A stretch of DNA of 64,000 nt from an uncultured virus (IMG/VR IMGVR_UViG_3300032294_003095) (lineage: Duplodnaviria; Heunggongvirae; Uroviricota; Caudoviricetes), in IMG/VR virus record IMGVR_UViG_3300032294_003095, one strand, 5' to 3'. Position numbers and translations under genes: made by a program. Below are positions 10,304-32,138 of the stretch, in pieces (position 1 is the first letter of the stretch; each line of letters begins with the position of its first letter). The notes below the pieces were generated by a model, which searched no databases, was not told the DNA's origin, and saw nothing but the letters and a program-made list of their open reading frames with translations.

Positions 10304-10309
10304 TATATA
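10301..10309 (+). promoter_or_regulatory. Late-type promoter TAATATATA (representative of about 20 exact copies)
   Basis: Same 9-mer precedes genes on + at 2575, 9370, 24735, 27330, 35978, 42548, 43975, 51077, 51357, 51793, 57917 and on - at 5280, 7450, 9053, 20169, 31329, 34220, 49632, 55676, 57418. Confidence 0.7.
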
Positions 10310-10316
10310 ATTTATT

Positions 10317-11465: not shown

Positions 11466-11491
11466 AAAAACCTCCAATTGGAGGTTTTTTT
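11464..11491. terminator. Bidirectional terminator
   Basis: A7-CCTCCAATTGGAGG-T7 between convergent genes. Confidence 0.8.
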
Positions 11492-11492
11492 A

Positions 11493-12029
11493 TTACAGTT
11501 GAACATAATTTGTTCCAGGTATAAACTGTTTATTGTTAAGCTTTGGTAATAGTGTTTTCCAAGTATGACCAAATGTCTTTTCAAAGTGTGGAGCATCTTT
11601 AAAAGATTTCCAATCACCTCCCCATACCCATCCACGATTTTTTAGTATGTTAACAACCTCCATCCAATCTGCTCTACCATCTTTGTCAAAATCAATATTT
11701 GTTTCCCAAGAAGCCGATTCAAATTTACCATCTGAATTAGTATCTTTTAATAGAACTATGTCCAATGCAAGTCCATAGTTATGTATAGACTGTCCACCTT
11801 TGGCTTTTGTAACTACACCAAGTCTTTTTCCTTTATCGTCAAATAATCTTGTTCTACCTTGCGCATAGAGAGCATCTTGCTCAGCAAATGTTCTTAATGT
11901 GTAGGCAAATCTGCAAATAGCTCTTCCATTTAAAGCTGGTACAATTTCGTTTAGGTAGATGTTTCTCACCTCCTCTCTTACAGCCGGATGTAATAGTTGG
12001 ATTCTATCTAATGTTGGTTTATCACTCAT
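11493..12029 (-). CDS. Endolysin, M15 L-Ala-D-Glu peptidase family
   Basis: RTFAEQDALYAQGR, SIHNYGLALD, WGGDW, DAPHFE. Confidence 0.9.
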   Translation of the reverse strand: MSDKPTLDRIQLLHPAVREEVRNIYLNEIVPALNGRAICRFAYTLRTFAEQDALYAQGRTRLFDDKGKRLGVVTKAKGGQSIHNYGLALDIVLLKDTNSDGKFESASWETNIDFDKDGRADWMEVVNILKNRGWVWGGDWKSFKDAPHFEKTFGHTWKTLLPKLNNKQFIPGTNYVQL

Positions 12030-12084
12030 AATTAGTTTTTTCTTTTATATATCTAACTTTTTATTACCGTCTCATATAAATAAT

Positions 12085-12576
12085 ATGAATGTATATAGTC
12101 CAGAAGAAGTAGATAGAATTAATAAAATTAAAGAAACTAACGATAGATTAGAGGAATTCTTTAATGGTAAAAGAACCGAGTGGTCAAAAAATATTGATCC
12201 TCTTTTCGAGGTATTAAAATTTGAAATAAATTCACAGTCATCTAAGAAAATTATGGAGACTCAAGCACTATGTCTTAGTTATAGACAAGTCATAAATGAG
12301 CAGATATCATCCTTTTTAGATAGACGATCTAAGCAAGATGTCAAGTTAAAAAGAATTAAGCAGGATAAATTTATTTGGTATGCAACATCATTTGGTGTTA
12401 AAACTAATATGGGTGAAAAAACACTTTTAATTGAAGCTCATGTCGCTGAGGAGCAGAGAAATGTTGAACTAATTGAAAACTATATTGAGTATTTAAGACA
12501 GACTAATAAAAATTTAGAAAGTTTACAATTTACTATAAAGAATATAATCGACTTATTTAATTATTTAGGTAAATAA
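12085..12576 (+). CDS. UvsY-like recombination mediator
   Basis: Start moved to ATG 12085. Helical protein ending LQFTIKNIIDLFNYLGK, similar to the UvsY C-terminus. TATAAATA at 12075. Confidence 0.55.
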   Translation: MNVYSPEEVDRINKIKETNDRLEEFFNGKRTEWSKNIDPLFEVLKFEINSQSSKKIMETQALCLSYRQVINEQISSFLDRRSKQDVKLKRIKQDKFIWYATSFGVKTNMGEKTLLIEAHVAEEQRNVELIENYIEYLRQTNKNLESLQFTIKNIIDLFNYLGK

Positions 12577-13884
12577 TTATTTCTTTTTCTTTTTAGGCTT
12601 CTTTTCCAATCTTTCAGATTTAACTCTCTCTATTTCTTTTTCTATCTGATCTTTAGAAACTCCCCATCTATTTGGAGCCCCTTTTATTGCTTCAAGTCTA
12701 TATTCATAATCACCAACACACTCAGAGCATGGTCCTGTACTTTCACCTGTGCCATCACAAGGCTTACATTTTACTTCACCATCATCATCACACTTTTTGC
12801 ATCCATCACCACTGCATTTTACACACTCAATACTGCCATTTCCTTTGCAGTCTGGACAATCACCGGCTTCTTCACCACTACCACCACAAGACCAACATTC
12901 AGAAGATGTTCCCTCCGTATCATTTAGAAATTCAACACCTGCAAAAGGTCTATTACTCAAATACTTCTTTTTCCTATTGAGACAAGAAAGAGTATCTAAG
13001 AATGGATATTGGTCAAAATCAGATTTAGTTAGCTCAACTTGTAACTCACCTACTATATTTTGACCTTTATATTTAAAAACTAAAGCATCATAGTTATCAC
13101 AGTTTTGTCTATATTTATACATCCAACCTTTTTCATCAGCATAATTTGTAAATTTGATAATATCACTATCATTATTAGTATAGATTCTATCCATGAAATA
13201 CTCAGGACCTGGAGTTTTACTTAACTTCCAAACAAGAGCTCTTCCTAAAACTTCACCACGACCATTAAAATAAACAAGTAGACTACAAACTTTAGGATTT
13301 TTAACATAGATATCAAAATAATCTTGACACTCTTCGTGTTTCATACAAGAACTACCTAAAGTACCTTTTTCTTTGAAAGCGTAATTATTATAATCGTAGT
13401 ATTTTCTAATACTTTCACCATTTACTAATTCAAATTTGTGATCTTGTTTATCAGTAGCAGCTTTATAAAGATTAACAAAATCCTCATAGTCTTTATCTTT
13501 CAACTTAGCAACACTACTTGACAATCCTGTATATGATATAAAATTCTTATCAGTTAATAAAGCTTTTGCAAATCTACCCACCTTAACATCACTTCTACCT
13601 TTTACAGAAAAGGGACTACTATCATCAGATATATTATCCGCCTTTTTATCTGATAAAAAAGATATAGTATCATCCTTATCGGAAATATCAATGAAATTTT
13701 GTTTTAAATCATCGCCAATATAAGTCTCTGCTGAAAAAGTATCAAATAATATCTTAGCAACTAAATTTTTATCTTTAAAAGATTGTATTTTATTTAAAAA
13801 ATCACCACTACATTGTAGATTTCCTTCTATTATTAGAGATATAATACGACTTTCAGTTAAAAATTCTGTGTATTTATTTAGCAT
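12577..13884 (-). CDS. SCM..GRALVW..MDRIY domain protein with DnaJ-type CxxCxGxG zinc finger
   Basis: Repeated CxxCxGxG motifs near the C-terminus; paralog of the 29448 ORF; CTS-like start MLNKYTEFLTES. Confidence 0.7.
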   Translation of the reverse strand: MLNKYTEFLTESRIISLIIEGNLQCSGDFLNKIQSFKDKNLVAKILFDTFSAETYIGDDLKQNFIDISDKDDTISFLSDKKADNISDDSSPFSVKGRSDVKVGRFAKALLTDKNFISYTGLSSSVAKLKDKDYEDFVNLYKAATDKQDHKFELVNGESIRKYYDYNNYAFKEKGTLGSSCMKHEECQDYFDIYVKNPKVCSLLVYFNGRGEVLGRALVWKLSKTPGPEYFMDRIYTNNDSDIIKFTNYADEKGWMYKYRQNCDNYDALVFKYKGQNIVGELQVELTKSDFDQYPFLDTLSCLNRKKKYLSNRPFAGVEFLNDTEGTSSECWSCGGSGEEAGDCPDCKGNGSIECVKCSGDGCKKCDDDGEVKCKPCDGTGESTGPCSECVGDYEYRLEAIKGAPNRWGVSKDQIEKEIERVKSERLEKKPKKKKK

Positions 13885-13931
13885 AAACTTTTTAATAATT
13901 TCTTGATATTAATGTATATATAAATTTTCCT

Positions 13932-14246
13932 ATGAATAAATTTAAATTAACCGAAGACCTCTATATTTTAGATAAAATTATCTTACCTAAAAATGCTGAA
14001 GTATCATTTGATGAATATGATGAAGTAAAAATATCAACTGAATACGGACCAATAACTTTCACAAAAGAAATGTTAAAAGATAAGATTGAAAGACCAGTTG
14101 AAAATGTAGAAGTTAAAATATCTGTTTTAGATGAAGATGAAGATGCTGTTAAGAATTACAGGCTTCAATTAGACTTTAAGGCATCGAGAAAAAAAGTAAT
14201 TGAAATAGAAACATATTTGAGAAAAACATTACATGATATGTTATAA
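13932..14246 (+). CDS. Hypothetical protein
   Basis: ORF only. Confidence 0.55.
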   Translation: MNKFKLTEDLYILDKIILPKNAEVSFDEYDEVKISTEYGPITFTKEMLKDKIERPVENVEVKISVLDEDEDAVKNYRLQLDFKASRKKVIEIETYLRKTLHDML

Positions 14247-14275
14247 TTTTTTGTATATTTACTTAAATTTTAGAA

Positions 14276-15211
14276 ATGAGTAAAGATTACCCTATAGGAG
14301 CAGTCGTTGGTAGATTCCAAGTTCATGAACTACACGATGCCCACAAATTTATTATCGACCAAGTCGTTAATAATCATAAAAAGTCAATTATATTCTTAGG
14401 TGTTCCCAAAGTAGTAGGAACAAAAAAGAACCCATTAGACTTCGATACACGAAAAAAGATGGTACAAGCATCTTATCCAGACTCCGTAATATTGGCACTT
14501 CCTGATATTGGAGATGATTTCAAATGGACTGCCGAGTTAGATAGAAGAATTCGAGAAGTATATCCAATTGGTGATGTTCTTATGTATGGTGGAAGAGATT
14601 CTTTTATACCATACTATAAAAAAGGAAACGGTCAATTCGATTGTAAGGAATTAGATCAGTACACTTTTGTCTCAGGTACAGAAGTTAGGAAAGCAGTTTC
14701 AGAAACAGTTAAAAATTCCTCAGACTTTAGAGCAGGGGTTATCTATCAAGCTTATAATCAATACCCTAAAGTACATCCTTGTGTCGATATCGCACCACTC
14801 TCTAAAGATGGTGATATGATATTACTCGCTAAGAAACCAGATGAAAATGGATGGCGATTTATTGGGGGATTTGTACATCCAAATGATGAATCTTATGAAA
14901 ACACGGTTGTAAGAAAATTAAAATCAGACTCTAATTTAGATGTAGATGCAGACGACTTGAAGTTCATTGGAACTTGTAAAGTTCCAGACTGGAGATATAG
15001 AAGTGAAGAGGATAAAATATTCACAATACTTTATAAATCTAAAAAATTTACTGGAGATATTCAACCATCTGACGATGTTTCCGAATTGAAATGGTGGAAT
15101 ATTGATGAATTGAAGTCATTTGTAGATCTTAAAGATAGATTTACAGGTCCAGTAGTTGATGAGCATAAACCTCTTATGTTAATGATATTAAAAAATTTAA
15201 ATAAAATATGA
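14276..15211 (+). CDS. nadM: Bifunctional NMN adenylyltransferase / Nudix hydrolase (NadM-Nudix, NatV-like)
   Basis: VGRFQVHELHDAH, KNPLDF, SGTEVR; Nudix-like C-domain with a degenerate box (GGFV..DESYE). Confidence 0.85.
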   Translation: MSKDYPIGAVVGRFQVHELHDAHKFIIDQVVNNHKKSIIFLGVPKVVGTKKNPLDFDTRKKMVQASYPDSVILALPDIGDDFKWTAELDRRIREVYPIGDVLMYGGRDSFIPYYKKGNGQFDCKELDQYTFVSGTEVRKAVSETVKNSSDFRAGVIYQAYNQYPKVHPCVDIAPLSKDGDMILLAKKPDENGWRFIGGFVHPNDESYENTVVRKLKSDSNLDVDADDLKFIGTCKVPDWRYRSEEDKIFTILYKSKKFTGDIQPSDDVSELKWWNIDELKSFVDLKDRFTGPVVDEHKPLMLMILKNLNKI

Positions 15212-16305
15212 AAGTAAATCACTCACCAGTATCATACTCTTCTATTGTTGAGATAGGAGAAAGAACATCCTATCTTGAAAAAACAACCGGAGAAACCTAT
15301 TTAAAACTTCATCGTGGAGTTATGGATGTAGATATGATCGATTTAAATTCATTTATGAATGACTTCGATTATAATCAGAAATCGGTTCAACAATATGGTG
15401 GTAATGATGGAGATGCTAAATTAGTTGAAGTTATTAAAGATAAATTTCACTTAAAAGACCACTATGTAATGACTGTACCTGGTGGAATGGCAACTTTAGA
15501 CTTAGTTATAAACTCACTATCAGAAGAAAATTTTTGGATACCAAAGTATCACTGGGGTTCTTGGAATAAAATTCTCAAAATTCATAATAAAAATACACAA
15601 GAATTCGATGATTTCAATATTGGAGATTTTAAAGCGTGTGACAATATTTTAGGATATTCAAGTGGAGTTGTTATGTTATGTTATCCATCTAATCCAACCG
15701 GATGGTCACCAGACTTCGAAGACTTAAAAAAGTTCTTAGATCACTCTAAAGAAAAGAATATTACAGTCATTTTAGACTTACCATACTATTATCTTTTCAA
15801 TGATATAGATAATCCTATTCACGAGTTATTTTATGATAATGTGATTGTTATATCGTCTTTTTCCAAATCTATGGGATTATCAGGACTTAGAATCGGATAC
15901 ATCGCTACGAAGAATCAAGAGCTTTACAACTCTATGAAAATTAGATCGTTGTATAAATACAACTCAATTTCAACTATTCCGCAACAAGTAATAACAAGAT
16001 TACTTACAACAAATGGTGGTAAATTGGCATTAGATAATTATAAGTGGAAAACACAAGATAGTATTAAAAAGAATATTCAATATCTAAAAGATAGGGGATT
16101 CTTATTTGATGAATATCCGTCAACTCCAACTGGGCCATTTGCAATTGTAAATATAAATTTTGATATTCTTTTGTTTAATCGGATATCATCCGTACCTTTA
16201 CATAAATTTTCACTCAATAGAACAGTGAATCCACAATACTCAAGAATATCAGTGGCAGTGCCACATGAAATATTCAAACAATATTTTGACAAAATAAATT
16301 CATAA
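15208..16305 (+). CDS. PLP-dependent aminotransferase class I/II
   Basis: PSNPTG, DLPY, SFSKSMGLSGLRIG (PLP lysine), C-terminal RISV. Confidence 0.85.
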   Translation: MKVNHSPVSYSSIVEIGERTSYLEKTTGETYLKLHRGVMDVDMIDLNSFMNDFDYNQKSVQQYGGNDGDAKLVEVIKDKFHLKDHYVMTVPGGMATLDLVINSLSEENFWIPKYHWGSWNKILKIHNKNTQEFDDFNIGDFKACDNILGYSSGVVMLCYPSNPTGWSPDFEDLKKFLDHSKEKNITVILDLPYYYLFNDIDNPIHELFYDNVIVISSFSKSMGLSGLRIGYIATKNQELYNSMKIRSLYKYNSISTIPQQVITRLLTTNGGKLALDNYKWKTQDSIKKNIQYLKDRGFLFDEYPSTPTGPFAIVNINFDILLFNRISSVPLHKFSLNRTVNPQYSRISVAVPHEIFKQYFDKINS

Positions 16306-16308
16306 TAT

Positions 16309-17766
16309 ATGGAACCAAATATTCTATTACTCACAGACTCTTACAAACCAACACACTGGAAACAACTACCTAAAGGCGTAACGATTTTAAGATCATATCT
16401 TGAAAGTCGCGGAGGCAAATTCGACAATACACTATTTTATGGTCTTCAATATATCATAAAAGAGTATCTACAAGGTAAAGTAATTACTTTGAATAAAATC
16501 AATCGTGCTAAACTATTCTGGGATGCACATCTTGGACCAGGTCATTTTAATATGGATGGATGGTTACACATTTTAGAAAAACATAACGGTCACTTACCTG
16601 TTATTATCAAAGCTGTTCCAGAGGGGAGTGTAATCCCAACAGGAAATGTACTCCTAACTATTGAAAACACAGACCCTGAAGTTCCTTGGCTAACAAACTA
16701 TCTTGAGTCACTTCTTTTACAAGTTTGGTACCCAATTACAGTTGGAACTCTTTCAAGAGAAATTAAAAAAGTTCTTATTGACTATTTGGTAAAAACATCT
16801 GATCACGATGAAAATGGAATTCGTGGAATTGTTAACTTTATGTTACACGATTTTGGCTTCCGTGGTACATCATCAGTTGAAAGTGCAGGAATTGGCGCAT
16901 CAGCACATATTATAAACTTCCGTGGAACAGATACAGTAGAAGGTATTCTATTGGCTCAAGAGTATTACAATACTTTAGATATGTTGGCATTCTCAATTCC
17001 AGCATCTGAACACTCAACTATTACTTCTTGGACTGAACCTTTTGAGGTAAAAGCATTTGAGAATATGTTAGACCAATTCCCAACAGGTTTAGTAGCGTGT
17101 GTATCAGACTCATTTGATATTATTAGAGCTTGTAGAGACCACTGGGGAACAACACTACGAGATAAAATCTTAAATCGTGATGGTCGTCTTGTAATTCGTC
17201 CTGATAGTGGAGATCCAGTTCAAACATTGAAACAAATTTTCCATATCTTATGGGATAAATTTGGTGGAACAGTCAATAAAAAAGGATTTAAAGTTATTGA
17301 TCCACACGTTAGAGTAATTCAAGGCGATGGTGTAAACTATGAGTCTATTATTGAAATTCTCGATATGATGGTTGAAGAAGGATTTGCAGTAGAGAACATT
17401 GCATTTGGTATGGGTGGTGCACTTCTACAAAAAGTAGATAGAGATACTCAGAAATTTGCAATCAAATGTTCATCAATTGTTATCAATGGTGAAGAGGTTG
17501 AAGTGCAAAAAAATCCAATTGAAATTAATGAGAAAGGTGAAAGAGTTCAATCATTTAAAAAGTCAAAAGCTGGTAGATTGAAACTTGTTCATCACATTGA
17601 TGAATATAACAATAGTGATGAATATGAAACTGTTCAACACTGTAAAGATTTTACCGGTGATATTTTGGTAAATATTTTTGAAAATGGTCATATCTTAAAA
17701 GAGTGGACATTTGAGGAAGTTCGTGAAAGAGCTGAGGTAAAAATTAATGTTGAAGAATTGGTATAA
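16309..17766 (+). CDS. nadV: Nicotinamide phosphoribosyltransferase
   Basis: TDSYK, LHDFGFRG, IPASEHS, IRPDSGDP, IQGDG, FGMGGALLQ, KKSKAG. Confidence 0.93.
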   Translation: MEPNILLLTDSYKPTHWKQLPKGVTILRSYLESRGGKFDNTLFYGLQYIIKEYLQGKVITLNKINRAKLFWDAHLGPGHFNMDGWLHILEKHNGHLPVIIKAVPEGSVIPTGNVLLTIENTDPEVPWLTNYLESLLLQVWYPITVGTLSREIKKVLIDYLVKTSDHDENGIRGIVNFMLHDFGFRGTSSVESAGIGASAHIINFRGTDTVEGILLAQEYYNTLDMLAFSIPASEHSTITSWTEPFEVKAFENMLDQFPTGLVACVSDSFDIIRACRDHWGTTLRDKILNRDGRLVIRPDSGDPVQTLKQIFHILWDKFGGTVNKKGFKVIDPHVRVIQGDGVNYESIIEILDMMVEEGFAVENIAFGMGGALLQKVDRDTQKFAIKCSSIVINGEEVEVQKNPIEINEKGERVQSFKKSKAGRLKLVHHIDEYNNSDEYETVQHCKDFTGDILVNIFENGHILKEWTFEEVRERAEVKINVEELV

Positions 17767-18537: not shown

Positions 18538-18816
18538 TTACATTTCATCATTATCCAAACCAATTGCATAATTCAATTCGTCAAGAACAGCATCAAGAGT
18601 AGTATCTACATCATCCTCAGTATAGAAAATTCCATCCCAATATCCAGTAAGTTGAGGAACATCCTCACGAGCAACAGTAGTATTATAAGAATCCATAATA
18701 TCTTCAGGTGAAGCAAATTCTCCAAGTTCCATTCTAACTCCTGAATAGGCTTCCGGTATATGGATTTTATCAGAATTATTATCTAAATTTTCATTAAATC
18801 TTTTTAAGTATTTCAT
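18538..18816 (-). CDS. Small acidic protein with CTS-like N-terminus (MKYLKRFNEN)
   Basis: Start moved to ATG 18816. Confidence 0.65.
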   Translation of the reverse strand: MKYLKRFNENLDNNSDKIHIPEAYSGVRMELGEFASPEDIMDSYNTTVAREDVPQLTGYWDGIFYTEDDVDTTLDAVLDELNYAIGLDNDEM

Positions 18817-18817
18817 A

Positions 18818-19210
18818 TTATTTCTTTTTCTTTTTTCTAGCTTTTGCAGCTTTAGCTTTTGCCCATAAATCAGCATCGGCTTTTCTCGCACCACCAGCAC
18901 CCGTAATAAATGAATTCACACGACCCATTCCCCACTGGTGTTGAGCAACACCTGGTCTATGTCCAGCATTCCAAGCTTGCATTCCTTTTGCAAAAACCTT
19001 TCTTAAAATACCCATTGGTATTCCAGATGCTTTAGATTTTTTTCTTAAAGATTCAGTCACACCTGATTTCTTTTTCTCATACAACTCATCAGATTCGTCT
19101 AAATCATCTACCATTTCATTGGTGAAATCATTTTCCAATTCAAAATCTTCTGATTCTAAATAAGTTGAAAAATCTTCTGTTAAGTCTTCAAAATTTAATA
19201 AGTATTTCAT
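18818..19210 (-). CDS. CTS-like protein with DUF5824-like C-terminal domain
   Basis: SGIPMGILRKVF.KG..AW..GHRPG...QWG.GRVNSF motif. Confidence 0.65.
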   Translation of the reverse strand: MKYLLNFEDLTEDFSTYLESEDFELENDFTNEMVDDLDESDELYEKKKSGVTESLRKKSKASGIPMGILRKVFAKGMQAWNAGHRPGVAQHQWGMGRVNSFITGAGGARKADADLWAKAKAAKARKKKKK

Positions 19211-19215
19211 TATTA

Positions 19216-19545
19216 TTATTTTATTTTTTTATCGTTTTCAAATATTTCATATTCTATACCCTCACCACCAGTCTCATCAGATAGTGTAATTATTTCTCCA
19301 TTAGAAAATTCTAATTCTATTTCATATAAATCATTTTTAACACCAGTGATTGAAGTATCTTTTATTTTTGATAAATCACCATCAATGGATAAGTGAGCAC
19401 CCCCAGCACATGCAAAGGTAATGTCTCCACTTTTTGTGTATAAAACAAATACACCACGTCCATCTAAATCGTCAGATTCAATAACTTCTACTCCTATTAA
19501 TTCTGACTCATTTCTAAAATTTTCAAATAATTTTAAGTATTTCAT
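19216..19545 (-). CDS. Small protein with CTS-like N-terminus (MKYLKLFENF)
   Basis: ORF in a four-gene array that all start MKYL. Confidence 0.65.
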   Translation of the reverse strand: MKYLKLFENFRNESELIGVEVIESDDLDGRGVFVLYTKSGDITFACAGGAHLSIDGDLSKIKDTSITGVKNDLYEIELEFSNGEIITLSDETGGEGIEYEIFENDKKIK

Positions 19546-19554
19546 ATTATTATT

Positions 19555-20145
19555 TTATTTTTCTTTGTTTCCAAACATTCTTTGGTATGCTTTCGTAGCT
19601 GCTGATTTTTTAGTTTTAACTCTTTTACCTTTACCACCCTTACCAGATGAATAATCAGCATCCCAGTCTTTTTTGTACTCTTTTTTACCTCTATAGGTAT
19701 CAATTTCTTTTTTCATCTTACTAGGATTTTTAGTCAAATATTTACCAGGTATTTTTTTACCCTTGTATCTCTGAGCTTTAACTCTCTCTGATATTTCAAA
19801 TATATCATAGATATGTTTTTCTATAACATCTAATCCTTCTTCAACACTTGATAAGTGTGAATTATAAATTTCTTCTAGTTCATCACTATCACCAATTTCT
19901 CTAATGATTAAATGTGGTGAATCTAAGTCTAATTCCCAAGAAATTTGAGCTGTTGTATCTGTTGCAATTAAATTAACCTTTAAAATTCCTTGTAGATTCT
20001 CATTTTCTTGATTAGACTCTATATTATACTCGAAAGATATACCACTATACTCAGATACTAAATCTGACAACTCATCCATTTTAGCATTTACATATTCCAA
20101 ATCTATTGGTCCTACAAATTCCTCAAAGATTTTTAAATATTTCAT
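19555..20145 (-). CDS. CTS-like protein (MKYLKIFEEF), acidic N-domain and basic C-domain
   Basis: Start moved to 20145; late-type promoter at 20169-20177. Confidence 0.65.
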   Translation of the reverse strand: MKYLKIFEEFVGPIDLEYVNAKMDELSDLVSEYSGISFEYNIESNQENENLQGILKVNLIATDTTAQISWELDLDSPHLIIREIGDSDELEEIYNSHLSSVEEGLDVIEKHIYDIFEISERVKAQRYKGKKIPGKYLTKNPSKMKKEIDTYRGKKEYKKDWDADYSSGKGGKGKRVKTKKSAATKAYQRMFGNKEK

Positions 20146-20198
20146 GATAAACAAAGTAAATTTTAATGTATATATTAATAAGTAAAATTACATTTAGA

Positions 20199-20975
20199 AT
20201 GGCGAGTAAACTTAACATACAAATTAAACCTGATAAATTTTCTGACTTTTTAGATAAACTAACTGACTTAGCTAAAATAAGTGATACCATTAAACTAAAA
20301 ATTGATTCTGAAAACATATTGATGTATTCAATTGTCGGTGATACAATATTATTGGCATTTAAAAGCTATTTAGTCGATACTTCTGACTATCTTGAAATGA
20401 AAGATGAATTGGAAAATACCTTAGATATCATTATATCTGGTTCAAAAAGATTCGTTAAAAATTTAGGATTTATCAAGACATCTGAAAAAATTCAAATGAC
20501 TGTTGATTACAGAACAGATGATGATGATAATAGTGTGGCAAGATTTTTACAAATTAAAAATGGAAAACTAAAAATAGGACTTCAAGGTGGAGAACCATCT
20601 GAAATACGAGATATAGCTAAAGATGTTTTATCAAAAAGAGTTGATATTAAAAATAGTAAATGGTCATTTAAAATACTTAACTCTGAGTTTCAAGATATTA
20701 AGAAGCTTGCAACTATAAATTCTGACGGTAGAATATTACATCTAAATATAGATGATAAAAAAGTTATACTCTCAGAAACATCAACTTGGGAATTCCAAGT
20801 TGATGAAGTAGATATGTCGGATAGACATTTAATGTTTAATAAGACTTTCCTTCCGTCTATAAATGATACTGAGGATTTTATTAACTTTTTTGTATTTGAG
20901 ACATTTATTTTAACAAAAGATAGTAACAGCCATCTTATGATTTCTTTTGAGCAGGATTTTAGTGTAGATGATTAA
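20199..20975 (+). CDS. Putative sliding clamp (gp45/PCNA-like)
   Basis: About 258 aa, two-domain alpha/beta pattern, near the polymerase; start MASKLNIQIK. Confidence 0.55.
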   Translation: MASKLNIQIKPDKFSDFLDKLTDLAKISDTIKLKIDSENILMYSIVGDTILLAFKSYLVDTSDYLEMKDELENTLDIIISGSKRFVKNLGFIKTSEKIQMTVDYRTDDDDNSVARFLQIKNGKLKIGLQGGEPSEIRDIAKDVLSKRVDIKNSKWSFKILNSEFQDIKKLATINSDGRILHLNIDDKKVILSETSTWEFQVDEVDMSDRHLMFNKTFLPSINDTEDFINFFVFETFILTKDSNSHLMISFEQDFSVDD

Positions 20976-22095
20976 ACTCAGACTCAATTAATTTATTTTT
21001 TATACAATTTAAGTATCTTTTAGTTATACAAAGGTTTTCTATGCTTCCAATTACTTCCGGGTCAATATTATTATTAAATCCATAAAATACACTTATTCTA
21101 TGATCAATTGTAGGGTAAAATCTATGTGTGTGTGAATATAAAAAGTTGGATTTTATCATTTCGTTATCGTAGTGATCAAAACCATCCCAGTTTTCCATAA
21201 GCTTCTTTTTATTAGAATTTGTAATTCTTCTAACTTTCCTTTTATAAACCTCCCAATCATTCAGTTCATATTGTGAAATAATTTGATTATTTTGAATTTT
21301 AGTCTTGATTATTTTATCATACACTTCTTTTATCTGTGAGACATTTTCAACTCCATATTTTTCTAAACAGGTTTCTTTTTTCTTTGATTGTATTTCACTT
21401 ATTTTTGATAAATATTTTGATTTCCAGTCATTCGTTTTAGAAAAACTATCTACTCCATATTTTTTCAAAAATGTTTTTTTAATTTTTTCAATAATAATAT
21501 ACTTATCATTTTCAATAATATTTTTAAACTCTTCCGTTTTTGAGAACGAATCAACTCCCCAATTTTTAATCAAAGTTATTTTGGATTTTTCTTTAAATTC
21601 ATCAGAAGACATCCATTTCCTATTTGATTCTATGATGTCAGGTCTAAGTAATGGATTTGTCATACCATATTTTTCAAGGCAAGTATTTTTAGTTTTTTCT
21701 CTAAAGTCCTTTAACATATTTGGATTCTCAACACCATACTTTTCAAGGCAAGTCTTTTTATATTTATCCTTAAACTCTTTAGTTTCTGAATAGGATTTAA
21801 CACCATATAACTTGAGATTGGTAATTTCTTTCTTTTTATTTTTACATTTAAAACAAGAATAAAAACCACACCTATCATGATTTTGATAGTATTTATTAAT
21901 TGAAATCATTTTTTCTTGTTCACAAACACCACAAATTGCAGTTATCTTAACTCTTGAATGTCTAGCGACTTGATTAATTGGAACCTCTAACTTTTTTTTA
22001 TCACCAAATGATAATTCAATATCATATCCAAGCTCTTTATAATACTTGATATTTCTAGAATTTATATTCACAAAAACATTTTCTTCTTTTATCAT
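20959..22095 (-). CDS. Putative HNH-type homing endonuclease with KYGVEN repeats
   Basis: N-terminal CxxC..CxxC; about six (T/K)xLxKYGVxx repeats; C-terminal PTIDHRIS...ENL.I....N..K; TTATATATA upstream. Confidence 0.7.
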   Translation of the reverse strand: MIKEENVFVNINSRNIKYYKELGYDIELSFGDKKKLEVPINQVARHSRVKITAICGVCEQEKMISINKYYQNHDRCGFYSCFKCKNKKKEITNLKLYGVKSYSETKEFKDKYKKTCLEKYGVENPNMLKDFREKTKNTCLEKYGMTNPLLRPDIIESNRKWMSSDEFKEKSKITLIKNWGVDSFSKTEEFKNIIENDKYIIIEKIKKTFLKKYGVDSFSKTNDWKSKYLSKISEIQSKKKETCLEKYGVENVSQIKEVYDKIIKTKIQNNQIISQYELNDWEVYKRKVRRITNSNKKKLMENWDGFDHYDNEMIKSNFLYSHTHRFYPTIDHRISVFYGFNNNIDPEVIGSIENLCITKRYLNCIKNKLIESEFNHLH

Positions 22096-22170
22096 ATAAA
22101 ACTAAATCTTTTATTCTATATATAAAAGTCAATAAGTCCCTTTCAGGACTAATTTAAAAAAATAATAAAA

Positions 22171-23634
22171 ATGACCAAGGAAGATAAATTAAAAAAAATT
22201 GAGTCACTAAAACATAAAGCCAACCAACTGAAGAGAGAAGCTGATTACTACAACGCTCTTCAGTTGGCTTAATTGCCCCTCTGTTTTTAACAGAGGGGTA
22301 CAAAAGCTTTAAAATTGATTCTGAATGGATCTTATGGTGCATTTGCAACACAGTATTTTATACTGTTTAACCAACACGTTGCTGGAACAATAACTGCACA
22401 AGGTAGAGATCTTACAAAGACCATGAATGCTGTAAATGAGAAGTATTGGTACGAACAATGGCATTTAGACTATGAGCTACACTCAAGACTAGGTATTAAG
22501 AATGTAACTCCAATATCAAAAAAAGATGGAGAAGAGGTATCAATATATGCTGATACAGACTCTCTTTTTGTTTCTTTTGAACCCGCTATTCAACATTGCG
22601 ACTGGAAAAATTTAGTTTTGAATCAAATCGATTCTATATCTAAAAGTTTTGTTTTCTTAGAAAAGCGTCAAGAAACTAAAATATCAAACTCAAACTGCAT
22701 GGGACATTTTAGAAGTGTGGACGATTTAAAGGAGTTTTTAACTGATAATAAACCAGAACTAATTATTGTGGATGGATATTTTACAAAGGATAGATCCTTC
22801 ACATCAAAGGATGTTCAAGATTTAATTAAAGATATTGAAATTCAGTGGAACTGGGATAATGAATTGGATTTAATACATGGTATGGATGCATTCCGATACG
22901 GTGGATACTTTAAAAAGTGTTTAGAAGAATATGCTGGTAGTTACGGTGTTAAAAATCGAGAGGATTTTGAGTTAGAGAGAGTATCTGAATCAATTATTAA
23001 TCTTGCTAAGAAGAAATATATTCAGCATATAGTATATGAGGATGGAATTCCTTATGATAGATTAACTTATATCTTCCCTAAAGGAGTTGAACTTGTTAGA
23101 TCGTCTACTCCGGCTTTTGCTCGTGAGAAGATTGTTGAGATTGTTAAGTATCTTTTTGCACATCCAGATGATTTTAACATAAAAGATTTGTTAAAATTGG
23201 TAAAGAATTTACGAAAAGAGTTTGAATTGGCTGATATTGATGATATCTCAATGCAATCTTCTTGTTCAAACTATGAAAATAAAGTTTTAGAAGATAAAAC
23301 AAAACTAGAGTTTGTGAGTGGAGCACACTTTGCTGTTAAGTCAGCAGCTTACTACAATTATCTATTGAATCAAAATAAGTCATTACAGTCTAAGTACGAG
23401 AATATAAAGTCAGGAACTAAAATTAAATACTACTATTGTAAGAATAAAAAGATGAATGATATGTTCGCTTTTATCAGAGGTTCTTATCCAATAGAATTTG
23501 CACCAGAAATTGATTACGATGAGCAATTTATGAAATCAATTTTATCACCAATCAATTCAATTATAGAACCATTAGGAATGCCAGAGATAACAAAGAGATT
23601 ATCAGTTGTCTTAGATATTTTTGGAGGATTCTAA
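22171..23634 (+). CDS. Family B DNA polymerase, C-terminal subunit (gp43B-like), interrupted by an in-frame 39-nt insert (22270-22308)
   Basis: 22171-22269 encodes MTKEDKLKKIESLKHKANQLKREADYYNALQLA and 22309 onward LKLILNGSYGAFA. Joined they give motif B (QLALKLILNGSYG). Also ITAQGR, motif C YADTDS, AKKKY and KGVE.VRSSTP. No exonuclease or motif A. Confidence 0.88.
22224..22308 (+). other. Candidate programmed translational bypass (hop) element
   Basis: Take-off GCT 22267-69, TAA 22270-72, hairpin CCCCTCTGTT/AACAGAGGGG 22276-22298, landing GCT 22306-08; 5' stem CCAACTGAAGAG (22224-35)/CTCTTCAGTTGG (22256-67). Confidence 0.7.
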
Positions 23635-24236: not shown

Positions 24237-24737
24237 ATGAAACATTTAATGAGATATGAAAACTACACATCCACTGAGAGGATGGATGATATTTTAGATA
24301 AAATATCTAAGTATGGTATTGACTCATTAAGTGATTTAGAAAAAGAATTCTTAGATTCACATAAAACTGGTAAAGAACAGGAGCTACATGATAAATTAGC
24401 GAAGTCTGAAGTAGAAACAACCTTTGAAGATGATCTTGGAAAATTCACATTTGAATTATCCGAGGTTCAAAAGATAAAGAGCAAAAGCGGAGAATTAGAA
24501 GAGATTGAAATAATTGGAACACTATACGTTCCAGACTTAGAGTGGCCAAATGGTAAAAGAATTGAGGGCAGACTAGAAGGTAAGATAATTAAATACTCGA
24601 ATGGTACAACATCATTAGAATTTGAAAAAGATGGATATGATGTATTTGAGTTTTGTAACGGTCTTGAATATGAGTTAGACACATTTATTGATTATGTAGT
24701 ATCAGAAATAGATGAAAAATTCAAATACGAAGATTAA
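24237..24737 (+). CDS. CTS-like protein (MKHLMRYENY) with DUF6576-like motif
   Basis: MDDILDKISKYGIDSLSDLEKEFL. Confidence 0.65.
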   Translation: MKHLMRYENYTSTERMDDILDKISKYGIDSLSDLEKEFLDSHKTGKEQELHDKLAKSEVETTFEDDLGKFTFELSEVQKIKSKSGELEEIEIIGTLYVPDLEWPNGKRIEGRLEGKIIKYSNGTTSLEFEKDGYDVFEFCNGLEYELDTFIDYVVSEIDEKFKYED

Positions 24738-25327: not shown

Positions 25328-27289
25328 ATGAAGAAATTTAAGTGCTTATTAAATCGTTTTTTTACATCGATTTTGTTTGTTTGCCTTGGAATTTCATCCT
25401 TTGCTCAGTATGCGGGTAGTGTAGATACTACTTTTGCTCCTAACAATAATGGAGTTCCATTTTCGACATCTGGACATTATCGTTCAATGGGTGTTGAAGT
25501 TATTGGTAATTCAGTTTATTACGCATTACAGTGTGAACCTGGATATCCAAAAATAAGAAAATATGACTTTCAAGGAAATGAGGACCTTGATTGGTATAAT
25601 AATCAAATGTCAACTTGGAATACACAGTTTGCAACAACTTTTTTGGAAACAGAAAAGGATATTAATGGTAATTATACAGGTGAATTTTTTATTTCAGGAA
25701 GAAATAGTTATAATTCCATGGTTAATCAAGGAGTTAGATTTTTAAATAAAATAAATGCGGATGGAACCAGAGATTTAAATTTTGTCTGTCCATATACAAG
25801 TTGGATATCTGTTTGTACCTCTATTTACCACGATTGGGAAAATGGTATATTATATTACTCTTATAGAAATGGGTATGGAACTGTAGTTTTGGTAAGTTGT
25901 GATCCAAATACTGGACAGGTTTTACAAACATTAACATTACCAGGTGTTAATAATAACTACAGTATAAATAAAATTACTAAAATTGAAGGTGTTGATGGTA
26001 TCATAGTTGCAGGATTATTTGATTTTGATTATAACAATAATCACTATACTAGTCTATTTAAAATAGATAGTCAATTTAATATTTTACCAATTAATGGTGT
26101 GACGAATGTTTCTAACAACTTTGCAGTATACGATATTATATCTGTTAATGACTCAGAATGTGATGGAACATTAACTGGATCAACAAAGATTTACATAGCG
26201 GGATCTATATCCGAGGTATCGGGAAATACCGGATTTAAAAATATCGCAAGATTTAACCTACTAAATGATTTTTGGCAAATTGATCAAAACTATAAACCGG
26301 GTTGTGCAGGTGGTGTTTATGATATATGTTATTATAATTGTCATCTAGTGGTAACAGGAAATTTTTCCAGTTCAACATCAAGTGGAAGTAACTCACCATT
26401 CTGGTCTCCTAAGGTGACAGCATTTACAAGTGATGGAATTGTTAGTGATGAATTTAAAATGACCACTACTGGATCTGGATTAGGTGGCGTTTATGTTTCA
26501 GGATTTGAAAATAGTTTCGGTCAAGGAACTGGAAGATGTTTAGCAGTAAATCCTACAAATGATGGTAATGGAAGATGGGAGATATTTATAGGAGGCACTT
26601 TTGTTAATTTAATACAAGGACCACCTCAACCAAGAAGTGTTATTAAACATATGAACTTTATGGCTAAATTATATGGATTTGAAAGTAATATAGATACTGG
26701 ATTCACATACTGTTTGGATGAAAATGGTTCTAATAATTATACTATATCAACATTCGATATATCAAATACAACAGGATGTGAAAAGTGGGAGGTATATAAA
26801 TCAGATGGTGAACCATTTAACTGGACCTTAATTAGAACAGAAAATACACATGATTTTACTGACACAACATTGACTACAAATGTTTGGTATAGGATTGTAA
26901 GAACAGTTACCGAGTGTGGTAATTCTTGCTCATCAGGATATATCATATATAAGGAGTCAAATAACTGTCAAATATCAAATAATGGTACTGAACTAAGAGA
27001 GCTGGTTATGAGTTCAGTAGATTATGAGGAGATAAAACAAATTGAAAGTGAAATTTCTAAATTAGATGTTTTTCCTAATCCAACAAATGGTGTTTTAACG
27101 ATTAAGGATGACTTTAAAGATGAATTTAGAAGTGTTTCTCTCTACAATTCATTAGGATCGAAGATAGTGTCTAAAAACTATAATTCAAATAATTATAGAC
27201 TAGATATAACAGACCTACCAAGTGGTGTATATATGTTGGTAATAACAACTGATACTGGAGTTCAAAAACAACAGATAATAAAAGAATAA
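25328..27289 (+). CDS. Secreted beta-rich protein with T9SS type A C-terminal sorting domain
   Basis: Signal peptide ending SFA-Q; delta-60-like motifs (GSVDTTF, NADGTRDLNF); CTD VFPNPT...YNSLG...LPSGVY...IIKE. Confidence 0.85.
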   Translation: MKKFKCLLNRFFTSILFVCLGISSFAQYAGSVDTTFAPNNNGVPFSTSGHYRSMGVEVIGNSVYYALQCEPGYPKIRKYDFQGNEDLDWYNNQMSTWNTQFATTFLETEKDINGNYTGEFFISGRNSYNSMVNQGVRFLNKINADGTRDLNFVCPYTSWISVCTSIYHDWENGILYYSYRNGYGTVVLVSCDPNTGQVLQTLTLPGVNNNYSINKITKIEGVDGIIVAGLFDFDYNNNHYTSLFKIDSQFNILPINGVTNVSNNFAVYDIISVNDSECDGTLTGSTKIYIAGSISEVSGNTGFKNIARFNLLNDFWQIDQNYKPGCAGGVYDICYYNCHLVVTGNFSSSTSSGSNSPFWSPKVTAFTSDGIVSDEFKMTTTGSGLGGVYVSGFENSFGQGTGRCLAVNPTNDGNGRWEIFIGGTFVNLIQGPPQPRSVIKHMNFMAKLYGFESNIDTGFTYCLDENGSNNYTISTFDISNTTGCEKWEVYKSDGEPFNWTLIRTENTHDFTDTTLTTNVWYRIVRTVTECGNSCSSGYIIYKESNNCQISNNGTELRELVMSSVDYEEIKQIESEISKLDVFPNPTNGVLTIKDDFKDEFRSVSLYNSLGSKIVSKNYNSNNYRLDITDLPSGVYMLVITTDTGVQKQQIIKE

Positions 27290-27294
27290 TAGTT

Positions 27295-27328
27295 ATGAAA
27301 TACCCCCATTTTTGGGGGTATTTCATTT
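27295..27328 (+). terminator. Intrinsic terminator
   Basis: ATGAAATACCCCCA...TGGGGGTATTTCAT hairpin. Confidence 0.75.
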
Positions 27329-32108: not shown

Positions 32109-32138
32109 AAAAAACCCACTCAATGAGTGGGTTTCTTT
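32109..32138. terminator. Bidirectional terminator
   Basis: AAACCCACTC-aat-GAGTGGGTTT. Confidence 0.75.

What the first reader, a model, noticed from the sequence alone, without database searches (positions are those of the whole stretch)
22171..22340. Candidate programmed ribosomal bypass (39-nt hop) in the DNA polymerase active-site helix
Seen: the ORF from ATG 22171 reads ...YYNALQLA(GCT) then TAA. 39 nt later, in the same frame, a second GCT is followed by LKLILNGSYG. Skipping 22270-22308 restores an exact family-B motif B (Q-x3-K-x3-N-x2-YG). The gap has two in-frame TAA and a GC-rich 10-bp hairpin (22276-22298). A perfect 12-bp stem (22224-35/22256-67) ends on the take-off codon. No start codon lies between the second TAA and the motif-B Lys, so reinitiation cannot give an intact enzyme. 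Known: matched take-off/landing codons, an adjacent stop, flanking stem-loops and a nascent peptide define T4 gene 60 bypassing; yeast mitochondrial byps are similar. Inference: an independent hop in an essential polymerase gene, with an Ala codon and a Lys-rich 33-aa nascent peptide.
Basis: partly seen in the sequence, partly recalled or inferred. Interest (0 to 1): 0.95.

Follow-up and report, generated by a model that had tools for sequence, protein, structure and literature searches.

The report
Ribosome-hop cassette in phage polymerase gene
A huge phage's DNA polymerase gene is cut inside its active-site motif by a 39-base hairpin that cannot be translated, and dozens of relatives carry similar inserts whose layout points to ribosomes hopping over them, a trick known so far from one other phage gene family.

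Summary
Confirmed. At 22267-22308 the gene for the C-terminal fragment of a split family-B DNA polymerase is interrupted inside motif B by GCT-TAA, a GC hairpin, an A-rich tail and a second GCT. The phage is a huge one of Bacteroidota type.

It is not an isolated oddity. Of 108 distinct relatives' sequences, 51 read QLALKL straight through. The other 57 carry a 36-49-nt hairpin insert at one of six codon boundaries within ten codons. Gap lengths fall in all three frames, so the insert cannot be translated.

- The hairpin starts 6 nt after the last decoded codon in all 56 single-insert sequences.
- An in-frame stop lies in that spacer in 48 of 56.
- The triplet before the resumed frame is synonymous with the last decoded codon in 43 of 56, against 0 of 56 in slid registers.
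- A covarying stem written in synonymous codons precedes inserts at the first two sites only.
- Inserts travel with a divergent homing-endonuclease gene (23 of 45, against 1 of 42 uninterrupted loci).
- The closest insert-free relative loses homology exactly from the upstream gene to the landing codon.

Best reading (0.7): a gene-60-like ribosome hop on an independent mobile cassette. Retention in mRNA and the junction peptide are not shown. This scan noted the same family before on other genomes.

The parts
20959..22095 (-). Free-standing homing-endonuclease-like gene (378 aa), divergent from the polymerase fragment gene
   Evidence: PHROG homing-endonuclease families phrog_12131 and phrog_3339 (E 2.7e-15 and 7.7e-15) and Pfam DUF7487. 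The family is multi-copy in huge phages, with up to 12 places in one record. Homologues sit in the same place in 23 of 45 insert-bearing loci and 1 of 42 uninterrupted loci.
20978..22305 (.). Cassette absent from the closest insert-free relative: endonuclease gene, leader, 33-codon first exon, stop, hairpin and A-rich tail
   Evidence: blastn against L067 (95% aa identity). Homology runs to window 20977 and resumes at 22306. L067 has 123 nt where the window has 1328 nt.
22171..22269 (+). First coding part (33 codons, MTKEDK...YYNALQLA); the last codon, GCT 22267-22269, is the take-off codon
   Evidence: It aligns codon for codon with the first 33 codons of uninterrupted relatives.
22224..22267 (+). 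5' stem-loop: arms 22224-22235 and 22256-22267 (12 bp), the 3' arm ending on the first base of the take-off codon
   Evidence: z -4.4. It is built with the rare codon CTG, 1.6 per 1000. The closest insert-free relative encodes nearly the same peptide with other codons and has no stem, -1.5 kcal/mol. Covariation in 24 distinct insert-bearing sequences, none in 48 uninterrupted ones.
22270..22272 (+). In-frame TAA directly after the take-off codon
   Evidence: TAA ends 37 of 44 long ORFs in the window.
22270..22305 (+). Untranslated gap (36 nt; 39 nt counted through the landing codon), with a second in-frame TAA at 22288-22290
   Evidence: Homologous 38-nt gap in L005 and L038.
22274..22300 (+). 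GC-rich hairpin; its C-run starts at 22276, which is +10 from the first base of the take-off codon
   Evidence: Stem covariation across 42 inserts. C-run at +9 to +11 in 54 of 56 by script, and in the other two on reading.
22299..22305 (+). A-rich tail (7 nt) between the G-run and the landing codon
   Evidence: The distance from G-run to landing codon is 5-9 nt in 48 of 56.
22306..22308 (+). Landing codon GCT. It is the resident gene's own Ala-33 codon, where homology to the insert-free relative resumes.
22309..23634 (+). Second coding part (441 codons plus stop): motif B from Leu-Lys onward, motif C (YADTDS), palm and thumb
   Evidence: Pfam DNA_pol_B and PHROG 262 DNA polymerase. dN/dS 0.04-0.27 between insert-bearing pairs.

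Best explanation
The 39 nt are the coding gap of a programmed translational bypass.

Proposed sequence of events (inferred unless marked):
- Ribosomes translate the 33 codons from ATG 22171.
- They stall with peptidyl-tRNA(Ala) on GCT 22267-22269. TAA is then in the A site and a stable GC hairpin sits 6 nt further on, at the mRNA entrance.
- The tRNA lets go of its codon and the ribosome slides about 39 nt without decoding.
- As the 3' arm of the upstream 12-bp stem leaves the ribosome it re-pairs behind it. This would favour forward movement.
- The same tRNA re-pairs with the next GCT (22306-22308), the first cognate triplet after the hairpin.
- Decoding resumes at TTA AAA, giving one continuous chain ...YYNALQLA-LKLILNGSYG... 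with an intact motif B.

Origin. The gap, the recoded first 33 codons with their stem, and the divergent endonuclease gene form one mobile cassette. It replaced the start of the resident gene up to its Ala-33 codon. As reported for T4 MobA and gene 60, the insert probably splits the endonuclease's target in the conserved motif-B DNA. That would protect the carrier while costing no residue in the protein.

Shown here: the anatomy, its conservation rules across 56 distinct inserts, the cassette borders, the single copy number in relatives, and purifying selection downstream.

Inferred: every step that happens at the ribosome, and the endonuclease's target.
For: 1. The insert cannot be read. Gaps of 36-49 nt fall in all frames (length mod 3 = 0, 1, 2 in 21, 20 and 15 of 56 distinct single inserts). 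The window's gap holds two TAA.

2. The gene is in use. The downstream 430 codons stay open, with dN/dS 0.04-0.27 between insert-bearing pairs. It is the only copy in 2 of 2 records rated 98% complete.

3. The geometry is set by the reading frame. Inserts at six different codons (A33, L34, V37, G40, S41, Y42) all sit at codon boundaries. The hairpin's C-run lies at +9 to +11 from the last decoded codon in 54 of 56 by script; the other two are script artefacts and read +10.

4. A stop lies in the 6-nt spacer in 48 of 56: at +4 in 9, including the window, and at +7 in 39. TAA, TAG and TGA are all used. What is conserved is therefore the meaning 'stop', not a base motif.

5. Take-off and landing triplets are synonymous in 43 of 56 and share at least 2 of 3 bases in 49 of 56. 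In registers slid by -6 to +5 nt the count is 0 of 56. The pairs are mostly NNT then NNA (CTT/CTA 19, GTT/GTA 4, TCT or TCG/TCA 2, GCT/GCA 2) or TAT/TAC (7). One tRNA can read both members of such a pair. A 3-bp target duplication would not produce these pairs.

6. The landing codon is the first triplet after the G-run with the same first two bases in 42 of 43.

7. The hairpin stem covaries: up to 21 of 42 sequences have both sides of a pair changed.

8. A 5' stem ends at the take-off codon. For A33 inserts the median MFE is -19.4 kcal/mol against -6.3 in uninterrupted genes; for L34 inserts -23.1 against -7.4. In insert-bearing sequences 82.7% of cells pair, 7 of 14 pairs show compensatory change and 0 of 500 shuffles reach that. 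In uninterrupted genes 44.5% pair and 342 of 500 shuffles reach it.

9. Cassette logic. The endonuclease gene is directly upstream in 23 of 45 insert-bearing loci against 1 of 42 uninterrupted ones (Fisher p 1.2e-7, not corrected for relatedness). The empty-site comparison puts the right-hand border at the landing codon.

10. The same feature list is what Manning and Atkins report as conserved among gene-60 cassettes: matched or wobble-matched codons, a stop or slow codon, a stem-loop, an A/U-rich 3' part, a 5' stem stronger in carriers, an endonuclease that can be lost (bioRxiv 10.1101/2022.08.31.505936, sections 10 and 11 read).
Against: - No RNA or protein data.
- At Y42 only 7 of 20 distinct inserts have a Tyr landing triplet. 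The rest have AAC (4), TAA (3), TAG, GAC, AAT, AGC, CAA and AAA. Landing would there need two-of-three pairing or none.
- In 39 of 56 the stop is one codon further on (+7), after an ordinary sense codon such as TTT or GTT. In 8 of 56 there is no stop in the spacer. The stall cannot be explained by an A-site stop alone.
- The hairpin is 6 nt away from the take-off codon and does not contain it, unlike T4.
- No 5' stem accompanies Y42 inserts (median -9.05 against -8.2, not significant).
- The G-run looks like a mini-SD 5-9 nt before landing, but 0 of 44 long ORFs in the window have an SD-like tetramer.
- The 33-residue peptide is much the same in relatives without an insert, so no dedicated nascent-peptide signal is visible.
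- Counts are over related sequences. One of the two seed patterns of the metagenome scan disfavoured loci broken inside LKLVLNGSY.
Confidence: 0.7

Rival explanations
1. The insert is removed from the RNA. On this reading it is a 36-49-nt hairpin mini-intron, cut out and re-ligated by an unknown phage or host activity that recognises the hairpin. The mRNA would then be colinear and translated normally.
For: It explains the frame-independent lengths and the intact protein equally well. It needs no landing codon, so it fits the 13 of 56 unmatched cases, all at Y42. The conserved, covarying hairpin could be a recognition element. The fixed 6-nt distance to the 5' junction could be a measured cut.
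Against: - It gives no reason for in-frame stops of three different spellings in 48 of 56.
- It gives no reason for all six sites lying at codon boundaries.
- It gives no reason for synonymous flanking triplets in 43 of 56 against 0 of 56 in slid registers.
- The 3' junction lies 5 to 16 nt from the hairpin, which is odd for a structure-measuring nuclease.
- No Rfam family matches. The only hit is noise, E 0.28, 15 bits against a gathering score of 95.
- No ribozyme this small that both cuts and joins is known to me (recalled).
- None of 79 insert-bearing loci has a near-identical insert-free twin among 58 uninterrupted ones; the best flank identity is 94.9%. This is weak evidence, since most contigs are DNA.
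Confidence: 0.15
2. Translation ends at the TAA and restarts after the hairpin. The polymerase would then be assembled from a 33-residue peptide plus a C-terminal piece, in addition to the separately encoded N-terminal fragment.
For: Family-B polymerases tolerate a split at the finger tip, both in nature and when engineered through termination-reinitiation at an AUGA (PMC3061061, abstract and passages read). These phages already split the enzyme there. The A-rich tail resembles the A/T-rich leaders of the window's genes.
Against: - No ATG, GTG or TTG lies between the last stop and the essential Lys codon in the window.
- The resumption codons in the family are GCT, GCA, CTA, GTA, GTT, TCA, TAC and GGT, none of them a start codon.
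- The breaks fall inside the nucleotide-binding helix, among the Q-K-N face residues named in PMC3061061, not at the finger tip.
- Matched codons would have no role.
Confidence: 0.07
3. The gene is dead, the insert is an assembly error, or the two TAA are read through by a suppressor to give a 13-residue insertion.
For: The window's exact 39-nt variant was found in no other contig. Its length is a multiple of three. Only 64 kb of the genome could be examined.
Against: - Homologous inserts occur in 57 distinct sequences from many independent assemblies.
- The downstream frame is under purifying selection.
- Two near-complete relatives' records hold a single copy.
- 35 of 56 gaps are not multiples of three.
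- TAA ends 37 of 44 long ORFs and no tRNA gene lies in the window.
- Thirteen extra residues would sit inside motif B.
Confidence: 0.03

Closest known systems
Phage T4 gene 39 / mobA / gene 60 cassette with its 50-nt translational bypass, and its homologues in Myoviridae topoisomerase genes (Manning and Atkins, bioRxiv 10.1101/2022.08.31.505936; abstract, sections 10 and 11 read)
   Same: - A short untranslatable insert a few dozen codons into the downstream piece of a split essential replication gene.
[quoted passage not shown]
- A stop just after take-off.
- A covarying stem-loop, an A/U-rich 3' part and a G-rich triplet run 5-9 nt before landing.
- Stronger 5' structure in carriers.
- An adjacent free-standing homing endonuclease that is often lost while the gap stays.
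- The insert lies in the most conserved coding stretch.
   Different: - The gene is polB, not the topoisomerase large subunit. That paper reports the cassettes exclusively in topoisomerase genes and does not contain the word polymerase.
- The endonuclease matches DUF7487 and PHROG homing-endonuclease families. Its relation to MobA was not tested here.
- The hairpin starts 6 nt after the take-off codon instead of containing it.
- The stop is usually at the second codon after take-off.
- There are six take-off codons within ten, and one relative (L071) has two gaps in one gene.
- The phage's genes show no SD use.
- The first-exon peptide is ordinary polymerase sequence, not an added extension.
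byp elements of Magnusiomyces capitatus mitochondria (Lang et al. 2014, known to me only through passages of the review PMC5009743 and of the Manning and Atkins preprint)
   Same: - Short block inserts skipped in translation.
- No SD involvement.
- A/U-rich 3' part.
- Take-off and landing not always perfectly matched, with two-out-of-three pairing invoked. This parallels the Y42 inserts here.
- More than one element can sit in a gene.
   Different: - There the elements sit at 81 positions in 12 of 15 genes and are said to be largely context independent, with an unused codon in the A site.
- Here a pattern search of four relatives' records found hairpins of this type inside no gene but polB. 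Of the other hits, the seven whose context was examined were terminator-like or ordinary coding sequence.
- Here the element is tied to an endonuclease gene and, at two sites, to a 5' stem.
Finger-tip split gp43A/gp43B polymerases of T4-like phages (Petrov et al. 2006 and 2010, as cited in PMC3061061; passages read)
   Same: The family-B polymerase is made from two genes split in the fingers domain. In relatives the exonuclease-bearing N-fragment (497-512 aa) lies 96-130 kb from the C-fragment.
   Different: That split is a plain two-gene arrangement. It does not explain a second, untranslatable break inside helix P of the C-fragment.
Fractured genes with split inteins and a homing endonuclease (Dassa et al. 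2009, PMC2677866; search listing and start of abstract only)
   Same: An endonuclease-borne interruption of conserved sites of replication genes in environmental phage DNA. Some relatives of this gene carry an intein or a broken intein in motif C.
   Different: The insert here encodes no protein and is out of frame in most members, so protein splicing cannot mend it.

Membership tests
Programmed translational bypass (gene-60 type), as a mechanism | Two coding parts separated by a stretch that cannot be decoded, together colinear with an uninterrupted homologue | tested here: met
   33 + 441 codons give the 474 of relatives' single ORFs. Gap lengths fall in all frames.
Programmed translational bypass (gene-60 type), as a mechanism | Take-off and landing codons readable by the same tRNA | tested here: met
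   Window GCT/GCT. Family 43 of 56 synonymous against 0 of 56 in slid registers. Not met for 13 of 20 inserts at Y42.
Programmed translational bypass (gene-60 type), as a mechanism | Stop or slowly decoded codon directly after the take-off codon | tested here: met
   Window: TAA at +4. Family: +4 in 9, +7 in 39, none in 8 of 56. For most members this is only partly like T4.
Programmed translational bypass (gene-60 type), as a mechanism | Conserved stem-loop at the take-off site | tested here: met
   A covarying hairpin is present in all 56, but it starts 6 nt after the take-off codon rather than including it. A few members (L017, L028, L093, L075, L128) extend the stem over the codon.
Programmed translational bypass (gene-60 type), as a mechanism | SD-like element 5-7 nt before the landing codon, pairing with 16S rRNA | tested here: inconclusive
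   The G-run lies 5-9 nt before landing in 48 of 56, but 0 of 44 window ORFs have an SD-like tetramer upstream.
Programmed translational bypass (gene-60 type), as a mechanism | Nascent-peptide signal in the exit tunnel | not testable with these tools
   The 33-residue peptide is similar in carriers and non-carriers.
Programmed translational bypass (gene-60 type), as a mechanism | Insert kept in the mRNA and one polypeptide made across it | not testable with these tools
There is no proteomics.
MobA / gene 60 cassette family (by descent) | Inserted in the topoisomerase large-subunit gene at Gly46/Asp45, with a MobA-type endonuclease | tested here: not met
   The host gene is polB. Sequence likeness of the endonuclease or gap to T4's was not compared directly.
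Homing-endonuclease mobile cassette | Endonuclease gene and insert present or absent together at one site, with defined borders against an empty site | tested here: met
   23 of 45 against 1 of 42. Borders at 20978 and 22305 against L067, and endonuclease-less carriers L005 and L038. Cleavage of the empty site is not testable here.
Self-splicing intron (group I or II) | Ribozyme core recognisable by covariance models; hundreds of nucleotides long | tested here: not met
   No Rfam match above noise in 21900-22700. Inserts are 36-49 nt.
Intein | In-frame insertion translated with the host protein | tested here: not met
   Two stops in the window's insert. 35 of 56 gaps are not multiples of three.
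Split family-B polymerase (gp43A/gp43B type) | N-terminal exonuclease-palm fragment and C-terminal fingers-palm-thumb fragment encoded by separate genes | tested here: met
   Relatives: DNA_pol_B_exo1 ORFs of 497-512 aa lie 96-130 kb from the C-fragment. In the window the N-fragment is absent from the 64 kb, and the rest of the genome is not held.

The most novel reading that the evidence does not exclude
A second, independently evolved family of endonuclease-borne ribosome-hop cassettes exists, in the polymerase gene of huge phages whose hosts do not use Shine-Dalgarno pairing.

On this reading the hop is specified by geometry: a hairpin 6 nt past the take-off codon, and at two of the six sites also a re-folding stem behind it. 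No dedicated peptide or rRNA pairing would be needed. The device would be robust enough to work from six different codons, twice in one gene, and to land even on near-cognate or stop triplets in the P site.
Probability: 0.6. Interest if true: 0.92.

Novelty: new variant of a known kind. Interest (0 to 1): 0.86.

Why it matters
Efficient programmed bypassing has rested for decades on one phage gene family, plus yeast mitochondria. The 2022 survey of gene-60 homologues still calls the cassette unique and finds it only in topoisomerase genes.

A non-homologous family in another essential gene would show that hopping is a recurrent answer to endonuclease invasion of conserved coding DNA. It comes with 56 natural variants: six take-off codons, three stop spellings, stops at two positions, members with and without a 5' stem, matched and unmatched landings, and one double gap.

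That makes several open questions directly testable:
- What is the minimal signal for take-off?
- What sets the landing site when there is no SD?
- Does mRNA re-folding behind the ribosome drive forward sliding?

It also matters for annotation. Gene callers will report this polymerase as a truncated gene or a pseudogene in many huge-phage genomes.

Tried and rejected
- **Stop-codon recoding.** Rejected. TAA ends 37 of 44 long ORFs, table 11 gives about 80% coding, and there are no tRNA genes in the window.
- **Read-through to a 13-residue insertion.** Rejected for the family because 35 of 56 gaps are out of frame.
- **Known RNA family.** None found.
- **Genome-wide spread like yeast byps.** Not seen. 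The window holds one such gene-internal hairpin. In four relatives' records the strict pattern hit only the polB insert. The loose pattern gave 4-12 hits per strand, close to the reversed-pattern control in three of the four records (4 against 0 in G004). Of the hits outside polB, only the seven that were returned as loci were examined. They were terminator-like hairpins followed by T-runs, or ordinary coding sequence.
- **The exact 29-nt core of the window's insert.** Found in no viral contig.
- **phmmer of the read-through translation against solved structures.** Found nothing. A profile of relatives then aligned motif B.
- **The window's own genome.** Not held.
- **An insert-free twin of an insert-bearing contig.** None found.
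- **G-run as mini-SD.** The spacing fits, but the phage's genes lack SDs, so this is left open.
- **Literature.** Searches listed no report of bypassing in a polymerase gene or in huge phages. One search found all 37 held papers since 2022 that use the term 'translational bypassing', of which 33 were listed. The library lacks most subscription journals. Supplements of the bioRxiv preprint are closed and may hold further cassette tables.
Full report
**What the window is.** The 64 kb are low-GC (26-35%) phage DNA. Genes found include a UvsX-like recombinase, NAMPT, primase, helicase, prohead protease and baseplate genes. The nearest GenBank records to the polymerase fragment are uncultured huge phages of 634-735 kb (69.7% aa identity for the best two), followed by Lak phages and Flavobacterium and Chryseobacterium phages. 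One ORF carries a type-IX secretion sorting domain. None of 44 long ORFs has an SD-like tetramer upstream. Both points fit a Bacteroidota-type host.

**The observation.** It is exactly as described.
- ATG 22171 opens 33 codons ending in GCT 22267-22269, followed by TAA.
- A second in-frame TAA lies at 22288-22290.
- GCT 22306-22308 is followed in frame by LKLILNGSYG and the rest of a PolB fingers-palm-thumb fragment, to 23634.
- No start codon precedes the Lys codon.
- The hairpin folds at -23.5 kcal/mol (z -6.4). The upstream 12-bp stem folds at -17.9 kcal/mol (z -4.4). Both exceed all 200 shuffles.
- A profile of relatives aligns the junction with motif B of the solved PolB 1s5j.

**Relatives.** Four GenBank huge phages start this fragment with ATG about 33 codons before the motif-B Lys and read straight through. 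The two closest have a single 474-codon ORF, equal to 33 + 441 here.

Scans of IMG/VR gave 62 loci and of metagenome contigs 80 loci. The metagenome scan kept the best 80 of 215. One of its two seed patterns was LKLVLNGSY itself, which disfavours loci broken inside it. Of 147 sources, 139 had both anchors. These collapse to 51 distinct uninterrupted sequences and 57 distinct insert-bearing ones: 56 with one insert, and L071 with two inserts 27 nt apart. Two edge-truncated loci were dropped.

**Rules of the inserts**.
- Gaps counted through the landing triplet are 36-49 nt. Length mod 3 is 0, 1 and 2 in 21, 20 and 15.
- Inserts follow codon A33 (7, including the window), L34 (20), V37 (5), G40 (2), S41 (2) or Y42 (20). 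All lie at codon boundaries.
- The C-run of the hairpin starts at +10 from the first base of the last decoded codon in 42, at +11 in 9 and at +9 in 3. The remaining two (L059, L093) were mis-scored by my regular expression and read +10 by eye.
- The 6-nt spacer holds an in-frame stop in 48 of 56: at +4 in 9 and at +7 in 39. TAA, TAG and TGA are all used. Eight have none.
- The triplet just before the resumed frame is synonymous with the last decoded codon in 43 of 56: A 7/7, L 20/20, V 5/5, G 2/2, S 2/2, Y 7/20. It shares at least two bases in 49. In registers slid by -6 to +5 nt no case is synonymous.
- The pairs are mostly NNT then NNA, or TAT/TAC. From general knowledge of wobble decoding (recalled), a U34 or G34 tRNA pairs weakly with the first member and fully with the second.
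- In 42 of 43 matched cases the landing triplet is the first after the G-run with the right first two bases.
- Inner stem pairs covary: up to 21 of 42 sequences have both sides changed.

**The 5' stem.** Windows of 60 nt ending on the take-off codon fold far better in carriers at A33 (median -19.4 against -6.3 kcal/mol) and L34 (-23.1 against -7.4). The effect is moderate at V37 and absent at Y42. These p-values are not corrected for relatedness.

On gapless alignments the named 14-pair helix is 82.7% paired in 24 distinct carriers. Seven pairs show compensatory change and no shuffle of 500 reaches that. In 48 of the 51 uninterrupted sequences it is 44.5% paired and no better than shuffles. 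L003, L004 and L054 were left out as the most distant.

The window and its closest insert-free relative L067 encode almost the same peptide here. The window uses CAA CTG AAG AGA ... CTT CAG TTG, including the rare CTG (1.6 per 1000). L067 uses CAA TTA AAA AAG ... TTA CAA CTC and folds at -1.5 kcal/mol.

**The cassette.**
- The 378-aa ORF at 20959-22095 on the minus strand matches PHROG homing-endonuclease families and DUF7487. It belongs to a family that is multi-copy in huge phages.
- Homologues lie divergently within 400 nt upstream in 23 of 45 distinct carriers and 1 of 42 non-carriers. The exception is L141, which has an intein in motif C instead. Twenty-one loci with too little upstream DNA were skipped.
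- Against L067 (95% aa), nucleotide homology stops at 20977 and resumes at 22306, the landing codon.
- The cassette therefore brought the endonuclease gene, a leader, its own copy of codons 1-33 with the stem, the stop, the hairpin and the tail.
- L005 and L038 keep a homologous first exon and a 38-nt gap but lack the endonuclease gene. Manning and Atkins report the same kind of loss for MobA cassettes.

**The gene is used.** Downstream frames are open, and dN/dS between carriers is 0.04-0.27. Two carriers' records rated 98% complete hold one copy of this fragment, with the exonuclease-bearing N-fragment 96-130 kb away. The window holds one copy and no N-fragment. Its whole genome is not held.

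**Mechanism.** The frame-locked geometry, the conserved meaning 'stop', the tRNA-compatible codon pairs and the landing on the first cognate triplet are what a ribosome-centred process predicts. An RNA-cutting process gives no reason for them. I therefore favour a hop (0.7).

From my own knowledge of ribosome footprints and frameshift spacers (recalled, not tested), a hairpin starting 6 nt past the P-site codon sits at the mRNA entrance. There it would act as a roadblock. The 3' arm of the upstream stem lies inside the ribosome at take-off and can re-pair only as the ribosome moves on. That fits the idea that pairing of exiting mRNA drives forward bypassing (bioRxiv 10.1101/2024.12.09.627546; title and start of abstract seen in the listing only).

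**Weak points.**
- Unmatched landings at Y42 (13 of 20).
- The stop is usually at +7, after an ordinary sense codon.
- No visible nascent-peptide adaptation.
- No SD use in this phage.

**Rivals.**
- RNA-level excision (0.15) explains everything except the frame-linked features.
- Termination-reinitiation (0.07) lacks start codons and would break helix P.
- A dead gene, an artefact or read-through (0.03) is contradicted by the family data.

**Comparison with what is known.** The closest system is the T4 mobA/gene 60 cassette and its homologues. The preprint that surveyed them (abstract, sections 10 and 11 read) finds them only in topoisomerase genes and calls the cassette unique. Its text does not contain the word polymerase. 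Six literature searches listed no report of a polymerase or huge-phage hop. The library lacks most subscription journals. Yeast mitochondrial byps (passages of PMC5009743 read) share imperfect codon matching and SD independence, but are spread over many genes.

**Earlier notes of this scan.** Four follow-up notes, found after my own analysis, describe stems and about 40-nt gaps in the polymerase gene of other huge phages. One further note describes a 5-nt gap in an N4-like phage. They agree with what I find here. They are AI notes and are not independent evidence.

Noticed in passing
L071:2480-2620 (approx.; relative, not the window): One relative (85% aa identity) carries two hairpin gaps in the same gene, 27 nt apart. 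The first is CTT...CTA after L34. The second is TAT...TAA after Y42. Two successive skips would be needed.
   Followed up: partly
L141, L053 (intein); L043, L049, L140, L045 (broken intein), relatives: In some relatives motif C (YADTDS) is followed by an in-frame mini-intein (C...HN|S). In others an intein N-part runs into stops, as in 'fractured genes'. The same polymerase fragment is thus invaded at a second conserved site.
   Followed up: partly
window 25328-27289 (+): A 653-aa ORF ends in a Por_Secre_tail (type-IX secretion sorting) domain, E 6e-14. This hints at a Bacteroidota host and at a phage protein exported by the host's T9SS.
   Followed up: partly
window, 20 nt upstream of 44 long ORFs: No SD-like tetramer occurs upstream of any of the 44. 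Leaders are A/T-rich, and many hold a TATATA-type motif that may be a phage promoter element.
   Followed up: partly
window 4220-5275 (-) beside 5387-6613 (+): A second, unrelated HNH homing-endonuclease gene (phrog_559, E 1e-65) lies divergently next to the UvsX-like recombinase gene. This is the same layout as at the polymerase fragment. The recombinase gene looks uninterrupted.
   Followed up: no
window 9398-17766: A metabolic block: PPK2 polyphosphate kinase (10317-11465), a cytidylyltransferase-NUDIX fusion (14276-15211), a class I/II aminotransferase (15208-16305) and NAMPT (16309-17766). It suggests phage-encoded NAD salvage.
   Followed up: no
window 18538-20154 (-) and 24237-24737 (+): Several small acidic ORFs begin with near-identical N-termini (MKYLK.F.. 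or MKHLMRYENY). They look like a paralogous family of unknown function flanking the polymerase fragment.
   Followed up: no
window 27295-27326 and 32112-32134: GC-cored perfect hairpins lie just after ORF ends. They are terminator-like and use the same CCCCC/GGGGG style as the gap hairpin, which may therefore derive from a terminator hairpin that lost its T-run.
   Followed up: partly
L044 and L145 against L045 and L046 (relatives): Otherwise identical inserts differ by one G in the G-run (8 against 7). This changes the gap length by one base. It is either a homopolymer sequencing error or a tolerated variation.
   Followed up: no
window 20779-20805 (+), inside ORF 20166-20975: A perfect 11-bp palindromic hairpin around GAATTC lies within the coding sequence of the gene upstream of the cassette. 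Its purpose is unknown.
   Followed up: no
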